From a plasmid, in the NCBI RefSeq assembly GCF_054482525.1, contig NZ_JBTHVG010000008.1: a stretch of DNA of 5,891 bases, one strand, 5' to 3'. Made by a program: the position numbers and the translations under genes. The notes under the pieces were generated by a model. It was not told the DNA's origin. It saw only the letters and a program-made list of their open reading frames with translations, and did no database searches. Within the stretch, counting starts at the first letter, position 1; every line of letters starts with the position of its first letter. Below are positions 1 through 5,891 of the stretch, one piece after another.

Positions 1-414
1 TCTGTCAGCGAGGCTGTGACATCAAACGAGACGAAAATCAGAGACGCTATAGCCCTGTTCACAGTCTCGACAGAGAAATCGCTGGAAAAACACCGGGAAG
101 GGGTGAAAGAGGCGATGATGCAGCACAGGAAGGACGTGTTAAAGCTGGCAGGGAATACGGGCATGATGTTACTGGGGATAGTCTTTCTTCTGTTTACCGC
201 GAGTGGCGGGACGCTCTGGTATCTTGGCGGACGGATACAGACGAACCTGGAAGAAATCAGGAAGCAGGAAGAGACATTGCAGAAACTGAACGCGAAGACA
301 TGGGGCGTGGAGTTTGTGCAGGACGGGAACAGGAAATTTCTGGTCCTTCCGTACGGGAAATCAGCAGAGATGATTCCCTTTCAGGGGAAAGAGTGGGTAC
401 ATCTGAAGGAGTGA
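1..414 (+). CDS. mbeB: Mobilization protein MbeB, 3' portion (5' partial at window edge; the first 35 codons lie at 5787..5891 if the window is circular)
   Basis: Frame 1 is open from nt 1 to TGA at 412-414. The track ORF 16..414 starts at an internal GTG. The translation contains one hydrophobic transmembrane-like segment (MMLLGIVFLLFTASGGTLWYLGG). The gene is nested out of frame inside mbeA, as in ColE1. Joined to 5787..5891 it gives 172 aa, the length I recall for ColE1 MbeB. Confidence 0.75.
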   Translation, partial: SVSEAVTSNETKIRDAIALFTVSTEKSLEKHREGVKEAMMQHRKDVLKLAGNTGMMLLGIVFLLFTASGGTLWYLGGRIQTNLEEIRKQEETLQKLNAKTWGVEFVQDGNRKFLVLPYGKSAEMIPFQGKEWVHLKE

Positions 415-761
415 CACAGAGTGACAGAGCTGGAAACACATTTGCTGAACGCCTTAGAGCAGCTGCAACAGGACTATATGCAGCGGCTGAGCGAATGGGA
501 GAGCGCCTTCGTGGAATTGCAGAAGATGTTTTCGCTTACGCAACGGGACAACGCGATGCTGAACGAGCGGGTCATGCAGTTGAGTCAGCAGGTGCAGCAC
601 TTGAGCGAGCAGACAGAACGCTTGAGCCAGTTATACAGCGAGAACTGGAGATAAGAGAGGAACGGTTGATGCAGGAGCGCGAACATGCGTTATCCCTGGA
701 ACGGGAGCGTCAGCTGGAAATACAGGAACGCACACTGGATGGCCCTTCGCTGGGATGGTGA
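3..761 (+). CDS. mbeA: Relaxase MbeA, C-terminal portion (continues from 5099..5891 across the window ends)
   Basis: I translated frame 3 codon by codon from nt 3 and found no stop until TGA at 759-761. The track reports only 300..761 because it begins at the first ATG. The single base left over at 5891 plus nt 1-2 completes one codon (gtc), so the two parts are in frame and sum to 517 aa. Confidence 0.8.
   Translation, partial: CQRGCDIKRDENQRRYSPVHSLDREIAGKTPGRGERGDDAAQEGRVKAGREYGHDVTGDSLSSVYREWRDALVSWRTDTDEPGRNQEAGRDIAETEREDMGRGVCAGREQEISGPSVREISRDDSLSGERVGTSEGVTQSDRAGNTFAERLRAAATGLYAAAERMGERLRGIAEDVFAYATGQRDAERAGHAVESAGAALERADRTLEPVIQRELEIREERLMQEREHALSLERERQLEIQERTLDGPSLGW
421..654 (+). 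CDS. mbeD: Mobilization / entry-exclusion protein MbeD-like, 77 aa
   Basis: GTG start at 421, directly after the mbeB stop and nested inside mbeA in a different frame. The product is a small glutamine/leucine-rich, probably coiled-coil protein (MTELETHLLNALEQLQQDY...). Position and size match the ColE1 mbeD arrangement as I recall it. Confidence 0.65.
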   Translation: MTELETHLLNALEQLQQDYMQRLSEWESAFVELQKMFSLTQRDNAMLNERVMQLSQQVQHLSEQTERLSQLYSENWR

Positions 762-966
762 AACCATGAAAAATGGCAGGTTCATTGGATTAAGGCGGAC
801 TAATGTGCTCTGTGCCATCTGGTTGCATAGGTATTCATACGGTTAAAATTTATCAGGCGCGATCGTGGCAGTTTTTCGGGTGGTTTGTTGCCATTTTTAC
901 CTGTCTGCTGCCGTGATCGCGCTGAACGCGTTTTAGCGGTACGTACAAACTGTTGTTATGTTAAAT
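760..966. other. cer-like Xer (XerC/XerD) multimer-resolution site: accessory sequences plus core at 938..966
   Basis: The stretch 846-946 (gcgatcgtggcagtttttcgggtggtttgttgccatttttacctgtctgctgccgtgatcgcgctgaacgcgttttagcggtacgtacaa) closely matches ColE1 cer as I remember it. Core: XerC-arm-like GGTACGTACAA (938-948), central region actgttg (949-955), XerD-arm-like TTATGTTAAAT (956-966). Each arm is one mismatch from the cer arms GGTGCGTACAA and TTATGGTAAAT. Confidence 0.7.
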
Positions 967-988
967 ACTGATGGGCTTTCCTGCTTGA

Positions 989-1873
989 TTATCCGAAGAG
1001 CAATCCCCAAACACTTTTAGCTACAGAAACAATGGCTTTCTTGGCGACTTTAGCCACTGACGCTATTGGTTTAGGTAGTACGGTGTCTATTATATCATCA
1101 ATAGCTCTATCTACGGTGTCTGCGAACCCGTCCTTTGCCGTTTCTACAATTTCTTTTGTTTTTATTTCGTCTTTTACTTGATGCACCACTCCGCTCTGTG
1201 CTTCCTTTGGGAGCGATCTTACTATTGCCTCCACTAACCTTGAAATGTTATAACCTTCATTCGCAGATACAGATATAACGGGATGTTTGGTAAAACCGAA
1301 TCGTTCTATTAAGTATTCTTCCTTTTTTCTAATATTTATTTGTTGTGAGGGTGATGGTTGGTGTTTTTCTTCATCCCATTCGCGGAATGGCTCAATCTTG
1401 TCGACTTGGTTTAAAACAAACAACACTTTTTCATCACCACCAACTGGTTTTAAAACATTTTTATAAAAGTGCTCATCAGCTGAAAATGCTCGATCATCAC
1501 CTTTAACAACCCAAAGCACCAGATCTAATTCTGGGAGAAGATTTTTATACAACTCTTCATATTCTATATCTTTAGCTTCATTTTCACCTACACCTGGTAT
1601 ATCTATTATTTTAATTGTTCTATCACCAAATGAAATTATTAATTCCTGAACCTTTCTCGTGCATGCTTCTACATCACTCACTGCACATACATTACCTTTA
1701 AAGATAGAATTACATAGGCTGGATTTACCAGCGCCGGTTTTACCCATAATCCCTATTACTGGTTCGTAATTAATAACATTTCTAATTTTGTTATAGACAG
1801 ACTTGCGAATCTCTTTAGGTAGAACATCCACAGCTTCTTTGATTAATTTTATACCTTGCGTATTGTTTTCCAT
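989..1873 (-). CDS. P-loop GTPase of the YfjP/YkfA/YeeP (MMR_HSR1-like) family with C-terminal amphipathic tail, 294 aa from the MENNTQ start
   Basis: The track ORF is 989..1960 on the minus strand. I prefer the ATG at 1873 (MENNTQGIK...): it has a GAGGA about 11 nt upstream and avoids overlap with the upstream gene, which ends at 1909. Motifs read in the translation: G1 GIMGKTGAGKSS, G3 DIPG, G4 NQVD, G5 SVSA. Conserved blocks ELDLVLW, DEHFY and QPSPSQQ resemble the E. coli CP4-prophage GTPases YkfA/YfjP/YeeP as I recall them. The C-terminus (PKPIASVAKVAKKAIVSVAKSVWGLLFG) looks amphipathic. Confidence 0.8.
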   Translation of the reverse strand: MENNTQGIKLIKEAVDVLPKEIRKSVYNKIRNVINYEPVIGIMGKTGAGKSSLCNSIFKGNVCAVSDVEACTRKVQELIISFGDRTIKIIDIPGVGENEAKDIEYEELYKNLLPELDLVLWVVKGDDRAFSADEHFYKNVLKPVGGDEKVLFVLNQVDKIEPFREWDEEKHQPSPSQQINIRKKEEYLIERFGFTKHPVISVSANEGYNISRLVEAIVRSLPKEAQSGVVHQVKDEIKTKEIVETAKDGFADTVDRAIDDIIDTVLPKPIASVAKVAKKAIVSVAKSVWGLLFG

Positions 1874-1908
1874 AGTTACTATTTTCCTCATTTTGTTGTT
1901 CATATGAA

Positions 1909-2343
1909 TTAACGGAAGCTTGTTTTTCTTTCTTCTTTTTCTTCCCCGCATACAGAACATTTGTAATGGCGATAGGTATCAGAACTCCCACTAAGATACC
2001 AATTGTGTCTTTTACCATGAACTCGCTCTGTAAAACATCTCACGCATCTTTCTTTCACATTGCAATAATCATCGACTGCAATTTCAACAAATCTTTCATG
2101 CCTTTCGCCTTCTTGTTCAGCGCCACAGTCGATACACTTTTTTACAGTTGTGCACTTGAAATCGTATTTATAACTTTCCTCTCCGTATTTATGCTGTTCT
2201 TTTTGTATAGTGCGATTGCAGTCAGGGCATAGTTTAGAATATTTACAAGTCTCACCATCAATAAGCTTATAGTTTCCTCCGTGTATACCTACCCCACACT
2301 TAGCCTTGATTGCTGCATTTTTTATGCTATCCCAAAAGCCCAT
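1909..2343 (-). CDS. Cysteine-rich small protein (144 aa) with three tandem CX5CX2C motifs plus a terminal CX2C; putative multi-zinc-ribbon protein
   Basis: ATG at 2343 (minus strand) is preceded by GGGAGA at about 7 nt spacing. The translation has 12 Cys arranged as CKYSKLCPDC, CTTVKKCIDC, CNVKERCVRC and CSVC, spaced about 30 aa apart. It ends 35 nt before the GTPase start, so the two are probably co-transcribed. I recognise no family. Confidence 0.7.
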   Translation of the reverse strand: MGFWDSIKNAAIKAKCGVGIHGGNYKLIDGETCKYSKLCPDCNRTIQKEQHKYGEESYKYDFKCTTVKKCIDCGAEQEGERHERFVEIAVDDYCNVKERCVRCFTERVHGKRHNWYLSGSSDTYRHYKCSVCGEEKEERKTSFR

Positions 2344-2389
2344 GGAAAAATCTCCCTACGATTAGTTGATATAAGTTGAACAATTCATC

Positions 2390-2440
2390 GACATGATTAT
2401 ACACGTATAGTGTGTGGATATATAAAAATGAGTATGGATT
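2390..2440 (-). promoter_or_regulatory. Candidate sigma70 promoter for the Cys-rich/GTPase gene pair (perfect -10 TATAAT on the minus strand at 2396..2401)
   Basis: The minus strand reads ...acgtgTATAATcatgtcg... about 50 nt upstream of the 2343 start codon. The -35 region is AT-rich and weak (TATATA-like). This is an inferred position within a 227-bp AT-rich intergenic gap (2344..2570). Confidence 0.3.
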
Positions 2441-2570
2441 TATGCTCTGTATAATGTTTTTGTTATGTTAAATATAGCGCTGAAAAAGTGGGGGCACTGG
2501 ATAAACTTCGTGTTTTTCCCGCAAAGATAGTATTGGAAAGTCATTGTCTAATTCATCCAAGATAAATATT

Positions 2571-3383
2571 TTACGAATTTGTGAGTTTGCTTGAGATTTT
2601 TATATATTCAGCCTTTATTAACTCATTGCCATATTTTTTCTCGAGTCTTTTAACAATGAAATGACCTCGAGCCATATCTTGATAATAGTCGGTAAACATT
2701 GTGTTTAATGTGGCTCCAGTTAGTGCTCCAATAACGGGAACGACTTGAGCTGCCATTTTTTCCGTAATAACTATACCAAATCTTGTTGCAACTTTTTCTA
2801 TTAACGAAGCTAACCATTTTCCTGTTTGTACTGAAGATGCGTTTTTGACAGCAATGTTAGAAATTTCTTTGGATAAATCTTGTACGATCTCGGCAGTCAA
2901 ACTTCTTGTTGCATAGTATGCAGTATTAGCTGCATCATCGTCATCAGATGGTCCTCCCAAGGAAAACACCTCTAAGCAGGCCAGTTTGGTATCAATATTA
3001 TCTAGCTCAAAACCTTCACTTCTTGCTATGTCAGCAATTGAACGAAGCATAATTGTCGTTGAAACCGGTAACTCAATTGCTAATGCAGAAAAGCCAAAAG
3101 CGCCACCAATGGCTCCAGATACGGCCGCAAAGAATTTATTTGTCTTAGTTGATGCTATTCGGTTAGGTTCATTGTCTAGACTCCATAAGGCCGCATCAGC
3201 AGCTTTGTGGAGCGATTTTTCTACTAGACTATAAATTTGCTCTTCTGCCCCTTTGGGAAGTTTACTCATTAAGTAATCTATTGGGGTTCCAACTAATTGG
3301 GTTAATGTTTCAGTAATTGTATCTTGTTCTAATAATTCTACGGCCCTTTCTAAAGCCCGCAGATCTCCTTCTTCAAGATGCAT
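2571..3383 (-). CDS. EcsC-family-like protein (putative), 270 aa
   Basis: Long minus-strand ORF. Its ATG at 3383 is preceded by AAAGGA at about 9 nt. It has Gly/Ala-rich hydrophobic segments (AAVSGAIGGAFGFSALAIELPVSTTIMLRSIADIARSEGF and VVPVIGALTGATLNTMFTDYY) that I associate with EcsC-family proteins. That assignment is from memory and unverified. Confidence 0.6.
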   Translation of the reverse strand: MHLEEGDLRALERAVELLEQDTITETLTQLVGTPIDYLMSKLPKGAEEQIYSLVEKSLHKAADAALWSLDNEPNRIASTKTNKFFAAVSGAIGGAFGFSALAIELPVSTTIMLRSIADIARSEGFELDNIDTKLACLEVFSLGGPSDDDDAANTAYYATRSLTAEIVQDLSKEISNIAVKNASSVQTGKWLASLIEKVATRFGIVITEKMAAQVVPVIGALTGATLNTMFTDYYQDMARGHFIVKRLEKKYGNELIKAEYIKISSKLTNS

Positions 3384-3536
3384 ATAATGAATCCTTTATG
3401 AATCAATCGATAGTCTACTTTTGTAAGTGATTCGTCTTGGGAGCTTACCTTGAGCGAGTTCAGTGATTCAATAGGCGAGATGCCGACATCATTGTTGTCT
3501 GTGAAGCAGGAGTGATGAAAAGATCAAAGGATCCTC

Positions 3537-3565
3537 TTGTGATCCTTTTTTTCTGCGCGTAATCT
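3537..3565 (+). promoter_or_regulatory. RNAII (primer) promoter: -35 TTGTGA (3537..3542), 17-bp spacer, -10 TAATCT (3560..3565)
   Basis: Positional and sequence equivalent of the pBR322/pMB1 RNAII promoter (TTGAGA - 17 bp - TAATCT). The transcription start is predicted at G3573. Confidence 0.7.
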
Positions 3566-3574
3566 GCTGCCTGT

Positions 3575-3682
3575 AAACAAAAAAACCACCGCTACCAACG
3601 GTGGTTTGTTTGCCGGATCAAGAGCTACCAACTCTTTTTCCGAAGGTAACTGGCTTGGTGGAGCACAGATACCAAATACTGT
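3575..3682 (-). ncRNA. RNAI antisense copy-number control RNA (about 108 nt)
   Basis: The minus strand beginning at 3682 reads acagtatttggtatctg..., the RNAI 5' end. It is complementary to the 5' end of RNAII. Its promoter (-35 TTGAAG, -10 CTACACT) lies at 3689..3718 on the minus strand. Confidence 0.85.
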
Positions 3683-3688
3683 CCTTCT

Positions 3689-3718
3689 AGTGTAGCCGCA
3701 GTTAGGCCACCACTTCAA
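3689..3718 (-). promoter_or_regulatory. RNAI promoter (-35 TTGAAG, -10 CTACACT on minus strand)
   Basis: The reverse complement of 3689..3718 reads ttgaagtggtggcctaactgcggctacact, matching the pBR322 RNAI promoter apart from one base in the spacer. Confidence 0.65.
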
Positions 3719-4119
3719 GAACTCTTAATATCTCAATCCACCTTGTCCAGTTACCAGTGGCTGCTGCCAGTGGCGCTTTGTCGTGTCTTACCGGGTTGGA
3801 CTCAAGACGATAGTTACCGGATAAGGCGCAGCGGTCGGGCTGAACGGGGGGTTCGTGCACACAGCCCAGCTTGGAGCGAACGACCTACACCGGGCCGAGA
3901 TACCAACAGCGTGAGCTATGAGAAAGCGCCACGCTTCCCGAAGGGAGAAAGGCGGACAGGTATCCGGTAAACGGCAGGGTCGGAACAGGAGAGCGCACGA
4001 GGGAGCCACCAGGGGGAAACGCCTGGTATCTTTATAGTCCTGTCGGGTTTCGCCACCTCTGACTTGAGCGTCGATTTTTGTGATGCTCGTCAGGGGGGCG
4101 GAGCCTATGGAAAAACGCC

Positions 4120-4140
4120 AGCGGCGCGGCCTTTCGTTGC
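4120..4140 (+). other. ColE1-type origin of replication (RNAII-to-DNA transition)
   Basis: The sequence aaaaacgccagcggcgcggcctttcgttgcc corresponds to the pBR322 ori switch region (aaaaacgccagcaacgcggcctttttacgg). Confidence 0.65.
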
Positions 4141-4369
4141 CCTTTGCCTTTTTGCTCACATGTTCTTTCCGGCCTTATCCCCTGATTCTGTGGATAACCG
4201 TATTACCGCCTTTGAGTGAGCCGGCACCGCTCGCCGCAGCCGAACGACCGAGCGTAGCGAGTCAGTGAGCGAGGAAGCGGAAGAGCGCCGGAACGTGCAT
4301 TTTCTCCTTACGCATCTGTGCGGCATTTCACACCGCATATAGCGCTCTTTTCTTACAATCTGCACTGAT

Positions 4370-4440
4370 GCCGCATGGTTAAGCCAGTATACACTCCGCT
4401 ATCGCTACGTGACTGGGTCATGGCTGCGCCCCGACACCCG
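4370..4440 (-). other. oriT / bom (basis of mobility) with nic region near 4381..4385
   Basis: The reverse complement of 4376..4440 reads cgggtgtcggggcgcagccatgacccagtcacgtagcgatagcggagtgtatactggcttaacc, the pBR322 bom sequence, which contains the nick site in the TGGCTTA context. It lies between the origin and rom, as in pBR322. Confidence 0.65.
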
Positions 4441-4529
4441 CTAAAACCTGCTGACGCGCCCTGACGGGCTTGTCTGCTCCCGACATCCGCTCACAGGCAA
4501 GCTGTGACCGTCTCCGGGAGCTACATGTG

Positions 4530-4721
4530 TCAGAGGTTTTCACCGTCATCCCCGAAGCGTGAGAGGCAGCTGCGGTAAAGCTCATCGGCGTGCTCGTGAA
4601 GCGATTCACAGATGTCTGCCTGTTCATCTGCGTCCAGTTCGTTGAGCTTCTCCAGCAGCGTTAATGTCTGGCTTCTGATAAAGCGGGCCATGTTAAGGGC
4701 GGTTTTTTCCTGTTTAGTCAC
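4530..4721 (-). CDS. rom: Rom/Rop, RNA-one modulator (63 aa)
   Basis: The translation MTKQEKTALNMARFIRSQTLTLLEKLNELDADEQADICESLHEHADELYRSCLSRFGDDGENL differs from pBR322 Rop, as I recall it, at only two residues. It has a GTG start with GGAGG upstream and is convergent with RNAII, as in pBR322. Confidence 0.9.
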   Translation of the reverse strand: MTKQEKTALNMARFIRSQTLTLLEKLNELDADEQADICESLHEHADELYRSCLSRFGDDGENL

Positions 4722-4761
4722 TGATGCCTCCGTGTAAGGGGGTATTTCTGTTCATGGGGTA

Positions 4762-5109
4762 ATGATACCGATGAAACGCGAGAGGATGCTCACGATACGG
4801 GTTACTGATGATGAACATGCACGGTTACTGGAACGCTGTGAGGGTAAACAACTGGCGGTATGGATGCGGCGGGTCTGCCTGGGTGAGCCGGTTGCCCGTT
4901 CCGGGAAGCTGCCGACACTGGCACCGCCGTTACTGCGTCAGCTGGCTGCCATCGGGAATAACCTGAATCAGACGGCGAGGAAGGTGAACAGCGGGCAGTG
5001 GTCTTCCGGTGACCGGGTTCAGGTGGTGGCCGCACTGATGGCCATCGAGAGAGAGTTGCGCAGCTTACGGCAGGTCGTCAGGGAACAGGGAGCGCGGGAT
5101 GATAGTTAA
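4762..5109 (+). CDS. mbeC: Mobilization accessory protein MbeC (MobC family); start codon uncertain among 4762, 4771 and 4786
   Basis: The track ORF begins MIPMKRERMLTIRVTDDEHARLLERCEGKQLAVWMRR..., which is the reading frame whose first 30-odd codons survive as the mob remnant in pBR322. The stop at 5107-5109 overlaps the mbeA start. A start at 4786 would give the 107 aa I recall for ColE1 MbeC. Confidence 0.8.
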   Translation: MIPMKRERMLTIRVTDDEHARLLERCEGKQLAVWMRRVCLGEPVARSGKLPTLAPPLLRQLAAIGNNLNQTARKVNSGQWSSGDRVQVVAALMAIERELRSLRQVVREQGARDDS

Positions 5110-5891
5110 ATTTCATGCCAGGGGAAAAGGCGGTGGCAGTGGTCCGGTTGATTACCTGCTGGGAAGGGAGCGTAACCGGGAAGGGGCAACGGTGCTTCAG
5201 GGTAATCCGGAAGAAGTCCGGGAACTCATCGATGCCACGCCATTTGCGAAGAAATACACGTCAGGTGTTCTGTCGTTCGCGGAGAAGGAACTGCCGCCGG
5301 GAGGACGTGAAAAAGTGATGGCGAGCTTTGAGCGTGTACTGATGCCCGGTCTCGAAAAAAATCAGTACAGCATCCTGTGGGTTGAGCACCAGGACAAGGG
5401 ACGGCTTGAGCTGAATTTTGTCATTCCGAACATGGAGCTACAGAGCGGAAAACGCCTCCAGCCGTACTATGACCGCGCAGACAGGCCGAGAATTGATGCC
5501 TGGCAGACGCTGGTGAATCACCATTACGGGCTGCATGACCCGAATGCCCCGGAGAACCGCAGGACGCTGACACTCCCTGATAACCTGCCGGAAACGAAAC
5601 AGGCGATTGCTGAGAGCGTTACACGGGGGCTTGATGTGCTTTACCGTACCGGAGAGATAAAAGACCGTCAGGATGTGATTCAGGCACTCACAGATGTGGG
5701 AGTTGAGGTTGTCAGGGTGACGCGAAGCAGTATCAGCATTGCAGACCCGAACGGCGGAAGGAATATCAGGCTGAAAGGAGCATTTTATGAGCAATCTTTT
5801 ACAGACGGGCGCGGAGTTCGAGAAAAAGCTGAAAGAGAGAGCCGAATCTACAGAGAAAATGCTGAACGACGAGTTCAGGAAGCTCGGCGAG
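5099..5891 (+). CDS. mbeA: Relaxase MbeA (MOB-HEN / MOBP5 type), N-terminal portion, 3' partial at window edge
   Basis: This ORF is absent from the supplied track because it has no stop inside the window. I translated by hand from ATG 5099 in frame 2 and found no stop through 5891. The product begins MIVKFHARGKGGGSGPVDYLL (catalytic Tyr19 context) and contains the HEN signature in WVEHQDKGRLELNFVIPN. It overlaps the mbeC stop by 11 nt. Confidence 0.9.
   Translation, partial: MIVKFHARGKGGGSGPVDYLLGRERNREGATVLQGNPEEVRELIDATPFAKKYTSGVLSFAEKELPPGGREKVMASFERVLMPGLEKNQYSILWVEHQDKGRLELNFVIPNMELQSGKRLQPYYDRADRPRIDAWQTLVNHHYGLHDPNAPENRRTLTLPDNLPETKQAIAESVTRGLDVLYRTGEIKDRQDVIQALTDVGVEVVRVTRSSISIADPNGGRNIRLKGAFYEQSFTDGRGVREKAERESRIYRENAERRVQEARR
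5787..5891 (+). CDS. mbeB: MbeB, 5' portion (35 codons), nested in mbeA in the +1 frame; continues at 1..414
   Basis: ATG at 5787 is preceded by AAGGAG at 8-nt spacing. Frame 3 is open from there to the window end with the last codon complete at 5889-5891, so it joins frame 1 at nt 1 without a shift. Confidence 0.7.
   Translation, partial: MSNLLQTGAEFEKKLKERAESTEKMLNDEFRKLGE

What the first reader, a model, noticed from the sequence alone, without database searches (positions are those of the whole stretch)
4370..4440. Intact bom/oriT together with a full mbeCABD set: the plasmid should be mobilizable
pBR322 keeps only bom and a mob remnant. Here the nick region, mbeC and a relaxase with Tyr19 and the HEN motif are all present, so the cargo can spread by mobilization when a helper conjugative plasmid is present.
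Basis: established knowledge. Interest (0 to 1): 0.25.

Follow-up and report, generated by a model that had tools for sequence, protein, structure and literature searches.

The report
ColE1-type mobilization module, intact
The window is a complete 5.9-kb ColE1-family plasmid, already in public databases, that carries the classic ColE1 transfer origin and all its mobilization genes intact, so it is an ordinary mobilizable plasmid.

Summary
Confirmed and ordinary. The window is a rotation of a complete circular plasmid, 100% identical to K. pneumoniae pMV-v4-SK2-O-b (NZ_CP085865.1, 5,891 bp), which PLSDB/MOB-suite already types as 'mobilizable, MOBP'. It is 70/71 identical to ColE1. The nick motif TAAG|CCAG lies at 4380-4387, and the nick is on the minus strand. 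In an alignment of ten plasmids an invariant block spans 4380-4439, and homology between lineages stops exactly at the nick. mbeC (107 aa), mbeA (517 aa), mbeB (172 aa) and mbeD (77 aa) have the same lengths as in ColE1, with no gaps and 94-100% identity. mbeA and mbeB are intact only once the window is circularised, because both cross its ends. Tyr19 and His97/Glu104/Asn106 are present and invariant across divergent relatives. MbeA scores 869 bits against NCBI's MbeA model (cut-off 500). Versions at least 99.3% identical occur in Klebsiella, Salmonella and E. coli, and a conjugative pOXA-48 IncL/M plasmid sits in the same strain. Transfer itself was not tested here. Novelty: already known. 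Interest: low.

The parts
4380..4439 (-). oriT (bom) conserved core. The nick motif 5'-CTGG|CTTA-3' lies on the minus strand (TAAG|CCAG at 4380-4387 on the plus strand). The inferred nick is between 4384 and 4383.
   Evidence: 70/71 identical to ColE1 over 4370-4440. The block is invariant in a ten-plasmid alignment, with a sharp loss of homology left of 4380. TAAGCCAG maps to ColE1 1462-1469. Those are the coordinates I recall from Varsaki et al. 2003 for nic; that is my own recollection, as the paper is not held.
4786..5109 (+). mbeC: ribbon-helix-helix nicking accessory protein, 107 aa. Its end overlaps the start of mbeA by 11 nt.
   Evidence: Pfam MobC 4e-13 and NikA-like 1.6e-08. 95.3% identical to ColE1 MbeC with no gaps. 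Annotated as a MobC family relaxosome protein.
5099..5891 (+). mbeA relaxase, codons 1-264 plus the first base of codon 265. Contains Tyr19 and His97/Glu104/Asn106. The gene continues at window position 1.
   Evidence: The 517-aa ORF crosses the junction. NCBIfam relax_MbeA_E1 scores 869 bits against a cut-off of 500. 94.2% identical to ColE1 MbeA with no gaps. The motif residues are invariant in 5 relaxases.
1..761 (+). mbeA relaxase, the rest of codon 265 through codon 517 and the stop (continuation across the circular junction).
5787..5891 (+). mbeB, first 35 codons. It is nested in mbeA in the +1 frame and continues at window position 1.
   Evidence: 172 aa across the junction. Pfam MbeB_N 1.6e-21. 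95.9% identical to ColE1 MbeB.
1..414 (+). mbeB, codons 36-172 and stop.
421..654 (+). mbeD: mobilization/entry-exclusion protein, 77 aa, GTG start, nested in mbeA.
   Evidence: Pfam MbeD_MobD 1.9e-35. NCBIfam plas_excl_MbeD 120 bits against a cut-off of 60. 100% identical to ColE1 MbeD.
685..846 (+). Small ORF in the mbeE position (53 aa), overlapping the end of mbeA. RefSeq calls it 'mobilization protein'.
   Evidence: ORF list and annotation WP_071779130.1. No Pfam or NCBIfam hit, so its status as a gene is unverified.
4530..4721 (-). rop (rom): RNA I/RNA II pairing modulator, 63 aa, lying between oriT and mbeC as in ColE1.
   Evidence: Pfam Rop 1.6e-37; annotation.
3517..4140 (+). ColE1-type replication region (RNA II primer and origin), with RNA I antisense at 3577-3680 on the minus strand. 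It is needed for establishment in the recipient.
   Evidence: Rfam RNAI 68.6 bits against a gathering score of 47. Homology with ColE1 begins at 3517. The 3' limit near 4140 is approximate, inferred from the known 555-nt distance between the RNA II start and the origin in ColE1.
780..966 (+). cer-type Xer multimer-resolution site. The crossover core is at about 936-966: GGTACGTACAA-ACTGTTG-TTATGTTAAAT.
   Evidence: Aligns with the ColE1 cer region up to the XerC arm, and homology is lost after the XerD arm.
967..3516 (-). Low-GC cargo carried by the mobilizable backbone: GTPase (989-1873), Cys-rich hypothetical protein (1909-2343) and EcsC-family protein (2571-3383).
   Evidence: ORFs. Pfam MMR_HSR1 and EcsC. 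GC 0.32-0.41 against 0.51-0.61 in the backbone. No homology to ColE1.

Best explanation
This is a functional ColE1-type (MOB-HEN, or MOBP5) mobilization module on a complete 5,891-bp ColE1-family plasmid.

Shown by sequence: the cis-acting oriT core (4380-4439) and the operon mbeC-mbeA, with mbeB, mbeD and an mbeE-like ORF nested in the +1 frame of mbeA, are all intact and 94-100% identical to ColE1.

Inferred from the ColE1 literature:
1. MbeC, a ribbon-helix-helix protein, binds oriT and helps the relaxase MbeA.
2. MbeA holds a metal ion with His97/Glu104/Asn106 and uses Tyr19 to cut the minus strand at 5'-CTGG|CTTA-3', between window positions 4384 and 4383. It stays covalently bound to the 5' end.
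3. With help from MbeB and MbeD, the relaxosome is handed to the coupling protein and type IV secretion system of a co-resident conjugative plasmid.
4. The nicked strand is transferred 5' to 3'. The replication origin enters first, then the cargo, and the mob genes enter last.
5. In the recipient MbeA re-joins the strand, and the plasmid establishes itself through its RNA II/RNA I/Rop replicon.

The plasmid has no coupling protein or secretion genes, so it depends on a helper.
For: - The window is an exact rotation of the circular plasmid NZ_CP085865.1, which is typed mobilizable, MOBP, rep_cluster_2350, the same as ColE1.
- The backbone from 3517 across the junction to 948 is 93.9% identical to ColE1 585-3919.
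- oriT is 70/71 identical to ColE1. An invariant 60-bp block ends at the nick in ten plasmids. The segment is present in 4,808 plasmid records, 4,418 of them typed mobilizable.
- MbeA, MbeB, MbeC and MbeD have the same lengths as in ColE1, no gaps, and 94.2, 95.9, 95.3 and 100% identity.
- Y19, H97, E104 and N106 are present and invariant in relatives down to about 57% identity.
- NCBIfam MbeA 869 bits against a cut-off of 500, and MbeD 120 against 60. Pfam MobC, NikA-like, MbeB_N, MbeD_MobD and Relaxase.
- Copies at least 99.3% identical occur in Klebsiella, Salmonella and E. coli from different countries and hosts.
- A conjugative IncL/M MPF_I plasmid is in the same strain.
- Literature: ColE1 needs bom in cis plus the Mob proteins, and is mobilized by IncF, IncP, IncI and IncW plasmids (PMC9282650). 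MbeA is the MOBP(HEN) prototype (PMC12857230). ColE1 is listed as a model mobilizable plasmid (PMC12282955).
Against: - No transfer or nicking experiment exists for this plasmid, so function is inferred from homology.
- A simple sigma-70 consensus scan found no promoter between oriT and mbeA. The scan is crude. It was not run on ColE1, whose rop-mbeC spacer differs from the window's by a single inserted base.
- The nicked strand shows no hairpin better than shuffled controls (z = -0.32).
- RefSeq labels mbeA a partial pseudogene in a sibling record, and the PLSDB tables omit it. However, the ORF is a full 517 codons there too, and ColE1 itself is treated the same way, so this is an annotation artefact.
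- A published case (pSN11/00Kan) has a conserved ColE1-like oriT and a mob operon yet was not mobilized by F tra genes (PMC9282650). Helper range therefore cannot be read from sequence alone.
Confidence: 0.9

Rival explanations
1. The module is complete in sequence but is in practice inactive, or works only with a narrow set of helpers. The cause would be altered expression or a poor match with the available coupling proteins, so the plasmid is effectively non-mobile in its natural hosts.
For: - No consensus promoter was found upstream of mbeC.
- There is a 1-nt insertion in the rop-mbeC spacer relative to ColE1, and 7 differences from the sibling plasmids lie in that spacer.
- MbeA has 30 substitutions relative to ColE1.
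- pSN11/00Kan, which has a conserved oriT and a mob operon, was not mobilized by F (PMC9282650).
- The only conjugative plasmid known in the host strain is IncL/M, and I found no direct evidence that IncL/M mobilizes ColE1.
Against: - None of the substitutions touches the catalytic residues, and all four proteins are gap-free.
- The oriT core is unchanged from ColE1 except at 4421. From memory, pBR322's functional bom has the same T at that position.
- The same plasmid is found in three genera.
- All nested reading frames remain open, which argues for continued selection on function.
Confidence: 0.07
2. The wide distribution of this plasmid across genera is due mainly to routes that do not use MbeA: transduction of small multicopy plasmids, transformation, or co-integration with a conjugative plasmid. 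On this view the mob module contributes little.
For: - ColE1 plasmids are reported to be packaged into phage particles very efficiently (PMC8683028).
- A 12.9-kb record holds 86% of this plasmid, with three matching places in the record. That could be a co-integrate or a multimer (H9).
- About 60% of ColE1-family plasmids lack a relaxase yet persist (PMC8683028).
Against: - This is not exclusive of mobilization.
- The 1.55-kb mbeA with two or three nested genes has stayed intact in all siblings examined, which is hard to explain without selection for transfer.
- ColE1, which is 94% identical, is mobilized efficiently in experiments (PMC9282650).
Confidence: 0.1
3. mbeA is a pseudogene, as the RefSeq annotation of a sibling plasmid suggests, which would leave an oriT-only plasmid that needs a relaxase supplied in trans, like pBR322.
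For: - RefSeq: 'plasmid mobilization relaxase MbeA, incomplete; partial in the middle of a contig; missing C-terminus' at 151-471 of NZ_AP027605.1.
- No MbeA entry appears in the PLSDB gene tables.
Against: - Translation gives an uninterrupted 517-aa protein in both the window and that sibling.
- The NCBIfam MbeA model matches residues 1-509 at 869 bits.
- The ColE1 reference record also lacks an MbeA entry, although ColE1 MbeA is the experimentally studied prototype.
- The single-base length difference from the siblings lies in non-coding DNA at about 4366.
Confidence: 0.02

Closest known systems
Plasmid ColE1 (NC_001371), mobilization region mbeC-mbeA(B,D,E) with oriT/bom
   Same: - Same gene order: ori, oriT, rop (opposite strand), mbeC, mbeA with nested mbeB and mbeD, then cer.
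- Same protein lengths, 94-100% identity, no gaps.
- oriT core 70/71 identical.
- Same replicon cluster and MOBP typing.
- 93.9% identity over the 3.3-kb backbone.
   Different: - The cargo differs. ColE1 carries the colicin E1, immunity and lysis genes and exc1/exc2. This plasmid carries a low-GC GTPase, a Cys-rich protein and an EcsC-family protein.
- The central region of the cer crossover differs.
pMV-v4-SK2-O-b (NZ_CP085865.1) and its siblings of about 5.9 kb in E. coli and Salmonella (for example NZ_AP027605.1 and NZ_CP100742.1)
   Same: The first is identical to the window. The siblings are 96.7-99.4% identical over the full length, with the same cargo and mob set.
   Different: The siblings are 1 bp longer or 11-13 bp shorter. 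Of the 41 differences from NZ_AP027605.1, 35 lie in 4290-4875, around oriT and rop but not inside the oriT core.
pBR322 / pMB1-derived cloning vectors
   Same: ColE1-type replicon, rop, and a bom site of nearly the same sequence (from my own knowledge of the pBR322 sequence; it is not in the searched collections).
   Different: pBR322 lacks the mob genes and needs them supplied in trans. Here mbeC, mbeA, mbeB and mbeD are all present.
oriT-only mini-plasmids (for example NZ_CP117321.1 at 1,316 bp and NZ_CP103737.1 at 1,549 bp)
   Same: They carry the same invariant oriT block, beginning at TAAGCCAG.
   Different: They have no mob genes and a different replicon, so they would depend on a relaxase supplied in trans.

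Membership tests
ColE1-type MOB-HEN (MOBP5) mobilization system | Relaxase with a single catalytic tyrosine in N-terminal motif I (Tyr19 in MbeA) | tested here: met
   Y19 lies in ...GPVDYLLG.... It is invariant in 5 aligned relaxases.
ColE1-type MOB-HEN (MOBP5) mobilization system | Motif III is H-x6-E-x-N (HEN) instead of the three-histidine motif (PMC12857230) | tested here: met
   H97, E104 and N106 lie in WVEHQDKGRLELNF. They are invariant in relatives down to about 57% identity.
ColE1-type MOB-HEN (MOBP5) mobilization system | Full-length match to the curated MbeA model above its cut-off | tested here: met
   NCBIfam NF047848 relax_MbeA_E1: 869.1 bits against a cut-off of 500; residues 1-509 match profile positions 1-496 of 497. 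Pfam Relaxase 29.2 bits against 24.6.
ColE1-type MOB-HEN (MOBP5) mobilization system | Ribbon-helix-helix accessory protein (MbeC/MobC) encoded immediately upstream of the relaxase | tested here: met
   mbeC at 4786-5109 overlaps the mbeA start at 5099. Pfam MobC and NikA-like. 95.3% identical to ColE1 MbeC.
ColE1-type MOB-HEN (MOBP5) mobilization system | mbeB and mbeD nested in another frame within the 3' half of mbeA | tested here: met
   mbeB runs from 5787 across the junction to 414, and mbeD is at 421-654. Both are in the +1 frame relative to mbeA. Pfam MbeB_N and MbeD_MobD. 95.9% and 100% identical to ColE1.
ColE1-type MOB-HEN (MOBP5) mobilization system | Cis-acting oriT (bom) with the ColE1 nick sequence CTGG|CTTA, located upstream of the mob operon | tested here: met
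   TAAGCCAG at 4380-4387 corresponds to ColE1 1462-1469, and 4370-4440 is 70/71 identical. The block 4380-4439 is invariant in ten plasmids. The exact cut position is taken from my recollection of Varsaki et al. 2003.
ColE1-type MOB-HEN (MOBP5) mobilization system | No coupling protein or mating-pair-formation genes on the plasmid (mobilizable, not conjugative) | tested here: met
   The 5.9-kb plasmid has nine annotated genes and none is a T4CP or T4SS gene. MOB-suite typing is 'mobilizable'.
ColE1-type MOB-HEN (MOBP5) mobilization system | Site- and strand-specific nicking at oriT, and helper-dependent transfer | not testable with these tools
   This needs a mating assay and an in vitro nicking assay. 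The only indirect support is near-identical copies in three genera and a conjugative plasmid in the same strain.
ColE1-type replicon | RNA I antisense regulator, RNA II primer region and Rop | tested here: met
   Rfam RNAI 68.6 bits against 47 at 3577-3680 on the minus strand. Pfam Rop 1.6e-37. The region is homologous to ColE1.
bom-only, mob-deficient ColE1 derivatives (pBR322 type) | oriT present but relaxase and accessory genes absent or truncated | tested here: not met
   All four mob genes are full length, so the plasmid does not belong to this class.

The most novel reading that the evidence does not exclude
The mobilization module is textbook, but its passenger may not be. The low-GC cargo consists of a dynamin/Era-like GTPase, a Cys-rich protein with no family match, and an EcsC-family protein. 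Its full-length form is confined in PLSDB to this one mobilizable ColE1 backbone in three genera. It could be an uncharacterised defence or competition module, assembled at Xer sites and spread by MbeA-dependent mobilization, perhaps with pOXA-48-type plasmids as helpers.
Probability: 0.15. Interest if true: 0.35.

Novelty: already known. Interest (0 to 1): 0.05.

Why it matters
It matters little beyond bookkeeping. It confirms that this small plasmid belongs to the well-studied ColE1 mobilizable class, so whatever its cargo does can move between Enterobacteriaceae whenever a suitable conjugative plasmid is present. In the source strain a carbapenemase plasmid of the pOXA-48 type is present. 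A practical by-product concerns annotation. Automated pipelines label the relaxase of these plasmids, ColE1 included, as missing or as a pseudogene because of its nested genes. Gene-table-based surveys may therefore undercount relaxase-bearing ColE1 plasmids.

Tried and rejected
- Folding the nicked strand (4360-4470, minus strand) as single-stranded DNA gave no structure better than shuffled controls (z = -0.32). I make no claim about a nick-proximal hairpin.
- The inverted-repeat search in 4300-4560 found only short arms away from the nick.
- The sigma-70 and terminator consensus scan of 4300-5150 found nothing. The mob promoter is therefore not located here. Conservation with ColE1 is the only argument for expression.
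- The pseudogene reading of mbeA was considered and rejected by direct translation.
- The primary papers (Varsaki 2009, PMC2648203; Tran 2012, PMC3318318) are not held. A text search for the nick sequence returned only unrelated papers, and a search for Y19/H97 found nothing useful. The exact nicked bond therefore rests on my recollection, on the matching ColE1 coordinates 1462-1469 and on the conservation boundary.
- I found no paper showing that IncL/M (pOXA-48) plasmids mobilize ColE1. Its role as a helper is only a suggestion.
- PADLOC gave only weak hits for the cargo: LeoBC/LeoA 1e-11 and PDC-S29 2.7e-10. That is not enough to call it a known defence system.

Full report
WHAT THE WINDOW IS. 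A megablast of the whole window against PLSDB gave a 100% identical, full-length match to NZ_CP085865.1. That record is Klebsiella pneumoniae strain MV-v4-SK2-O plasmid pMV-v4-SK2-O-b, 5,891 bp, circular, from an environmental swab in a Swiss veterinary clinic. The window is an exact rotation of that record. PLSDB/MOB-suite types it as 'mobilizable; rep_cluster_2350; relaxase MOBP', the same typing as ColE1 itself, NC_001371. Eight further records of 5,878-5,892 bp from E. coli and Salmonella enterica (human, goat and pig sources) are 96.7-99.4% identical over the full length.

CHECK OF THE OBSERVATION: THE NICK REGION. Window 4290-4560 aligns with ColE1 1370-1645 at 96% identity. From my own knowledge, Varsaki et al. 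2003 (Mol Microbiol 48:481) mapped the ColE1 nick to 5'-(1469)CTGG/CTTA(1462)-3'. The paper is not in the held library, but those coordinates match what I find in NC_001371. This places the nick on the window's minus strand, between positions 4384 and 4383.

The data give an independent pointer to the same spot. A blastn search with 4360-4450 found the segment in 4,808 plasmid records, 4,418 of them typed mobilizable. Many of the more distant hits begin at query position 19-23, which is window 4378-4382. I fetched eight divergent plasmids and aligned them with the window and ColE1. The block 4380-4439 is invariant or nearly so in all ten, and sequence to the left of 4380 is unrelated between lineages. 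The conserved side is the 5' side of the nick on the nicked strand, where relaxase and accessory-protein recognition sequences are expected. The abrupt boundary fits the published idea that ColE1-family plasmids recombine at oriT and at cer (PMC8683028).

CHECK OF THE OBSERVATION: THE GENES. On the linear window the relaxase ORF starts at 5099 and runs off the end. Joined across the circular junction it is 517 codons and ends at 761. mbeB likewise runs from 5787 across the junction to 414 (172 aa). mbeD is 421-654 (77 aa, GTG start). mbeC is 4786-5109 (107 aa), overlapping the mbeA start by 11 nt. All four have exactly the ColE1 lengths and align with no gaps: MbeA 94.2%, MbeB 95.9%, MbeC 95.3% and MbeD 100% identical. 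'Full mbeCABD set' is therefore correct, but only because the window is a whole circular molecule. The actual layout is mbeC then mbeA, with mbeB, mbeD and a small mbeE-position ORF (685-846) nested in the +1 frame of mbeA.

Tyr19 and His97/Glu104/Asn106 are present. None of the 30 MbeA substitutions relative to ColE1 touches them. They are invariant in an alignment that includes three relaxases only about 57-60% identical overall. Family scans agree:
- NCBIfam relax_MbeA_E1: 869 bits against a cut-off of 500, covering residues 1-509.
- NCBIfam plas_excl_MbeD: 120 bits against a cut-off of 60.
- Pfam: Relaxase, MobC plus NikA-like, MbeB_N, MbeD_MobD and Rop.

AN ANNOTATION TRAP. RefSeq marks mbeA in the sibling NZ_AP027605.1 as 'incomplete; partial in the middle of a contig; missing C-terminus'. 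The PLSDB gene tables list no relaxase for the window's record, for the sibling, or even for ColE1. Direct translation shows an uninterrupted 517-aa ORF in the sibling as well. The one-base length difference between window and sibling lies in non-coding DNA near 4366. The pseudogene label appears to be an artefact, plausibly of the nested-gene architecture, and is not evidence against function.

SURROUNDINGS. The backbone from 3517 across the junction to 948 is 93.9% identical to ColE1 585-3919. It contains:
- the RNA II/RNA I replicon, with an Rfam RNAI hit at 3577-3680 on the minus strand (68.6 bits);
- oriT;
- rop at 4530-4721 on the minus strand;
- the mob operon;
- cer.

Homology with ColE1 ends inside the cer crossover. 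The XerC arm is conserved, the central region differs, the XerD arm is TTATGTTAAAT, and after that there is no similarity. Positions 967-3516 are low-GC cargo, at 0.32-0.41 against 0.51-0.61 in the backbone. The cargo encodes a GTPase, a Cys-rich protein with no family match, and an EcsC-family protein.

MECHANISM. Shown here: all sequence components of the ColE1 relaxosome and its target are intact, and the plasmid has no coupling-protein or secretion genes.

Inferred from established work on ColE1 (PMC9282650, PMC12857230, PMC5935869 and my own knowledge of Varsaki et al. 2003, 2009 and 2012):
1. MbeC binds oriT and stimulates MbeA.
2. MbeA coordinates a metal with the HEN residues and uses Tyr19 to cleave CTGG|CTTA on the minus strand, staying attached to the 5' end.
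3. A helper plasmid's coupling protein and type IV secretion system export the MbeA-DNA complex 5' to 3'. Given the strand and position of the nick, the replication origin leads and the mob genes enter last.
4. MbeA recloses the circle in the recipient, and the ColE1 replicon takes over.

ColE1 is reported to be mobilized by IncF, IncP, IncI and IncW plasmids (PMC9282650). The source strain also carries a 63.6-kb conjugative IncL/M, MPF_I, pOXA-48-type plasmid. It is a candidate natural helper, but I found no paper showing that IncL/M mobilizes ColE1.

CAVEATS.
- No experiment exists for this plasmid.
- A consensus scan found no sigma-70 promoter in 4300-5150. The rop-mbeC spacer differs from ColE1 by a single inserted base.
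- No significant single-strand hairpin is predicted next to the nick.
- One published ColE1-like plasmid with a conserved oriT and a mob operon was not mobilized by F (PMC9282650), so helper range cannot be read from sequence.

COMPARISON WITH WHAT IS KNOWN, AND VERDICT. Every defining feature of the ColE1/MOB-HEN (MOBP5) mobilization system that can be tested in silico is met. Only the functional assays are untestable here. The plasmid itself is already deposited and already typed as mobilizable. ColE1 plasmids are widely described as small mobilizable gene-capture platforms (PMC5864857, PMC8683028), and about 40% of enterobacterial members carry the relaxase (PMC8683028). The finding is correct and already known. 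Its interest is low. The only open question nearby is what the cargo does.

Noticed in passing
window 953-967 and 2460-2474: An exact 15-bp direct repeat, TTGTTATGTTAAATA, contains a dif-type XerD arm (TTATGTTAAAT). The first copy is the cer crossover. The second lies between the Cys-rich ORF and the EcsC gene. The GTPase and Cys-rich gene pair is therefore bracketed by two directly repeated Xer-like sites, which suggests a possible Xer cassette. The XerC-side arm of the second site is poorly conserved.
   Followed up: partly
window 967-3516: The cargo is a GTPase (989-1873), a Cys-rich 144-aa protein with no Pfam hit (1909-2343) and an EcsC-family protein (2571-3383). All are on the minus strand and low in GC. 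PADLOC hits are weak: LeoBC/LeoA 1e-11 for the GTPase and PDC-S29 2.7e-10 for EcsC. The full cargo occurs in only 9 PLSDB records. The EcsC part alone (window 2577-3516) occurs at about 91% identity on plasmids of about 3.3 kb and on one 193-kb plasmid. Function is unknown.
   Followed up: partly
window 5099-5891 joined to 1-761; L004 151-471; L003 2180-3733: RefSeq/PGAP labels mbeA a partial pseudogene in a sibling record, and the PLSDB gene tables omit the relaxase even for ColE1. Yet the 517-codon ORF is intact in all of them. This looks like a systematic annotation artefact, plausibly linked to the nested mbeB and mbeD genes.
   Followed up: yes
window 4290-4875: Of the 41 differences between the window and the 5,892-bp sibling NZ_AP027605.1, 35 fall in this 590-bp stretch (ori-bom spacer, rop, rop-mbeC spacer and the start of mbeC). 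None falls in 4380-4441. It looks like a recombination patch from another ColE1-like plasmid that spares the oriT core.
   Followed up: partly
L009 (NZ_CP117321.1, 1,316 bp) and L010 (NZ_CP103737.1, 1,549 bp), aligned to window 4380-4439: Very small plasmids with one annotated gene and no mob genes in the PLSDB table carry the same invariant oriT block. In all divergent lineages homology starts exactly at TAAGCCAG. This fits oriT-only hitchers and relaxase-mediated recombination at the nick.
   Followed up: partly
window 3702-3860, minus strand: A 52-aa ORF inside the RNA II/origin region is annotated in RefSeq as 'replication initiation protein' (WP_071529495.1), and ColE1 carries a likewise-named ORF (WP_071531517.1) at the same place. 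ColE1 replication needs no plasmid initiator protein, so this is probably a spurious gene call.
   Followed up: no
NZ_CP085864.1 (L005), same strain as the window: The co-resident plasmid is a 63.6-kb pOXA-48-type plasmid: IncL/M, conjugative, MOBP, MPF_I. It is a candidate natural helper. I found no literature on IncL/M mobilizing ColE1.
   Followed up: partly
CP100018.1 (hit H9, 12,915 bp): A 12.9-kb E. coli record contains 86% of this plasmid, with three matching places in the record. It may be a co-integrate, a multimer or an assembly artefact.
   Followed up: no
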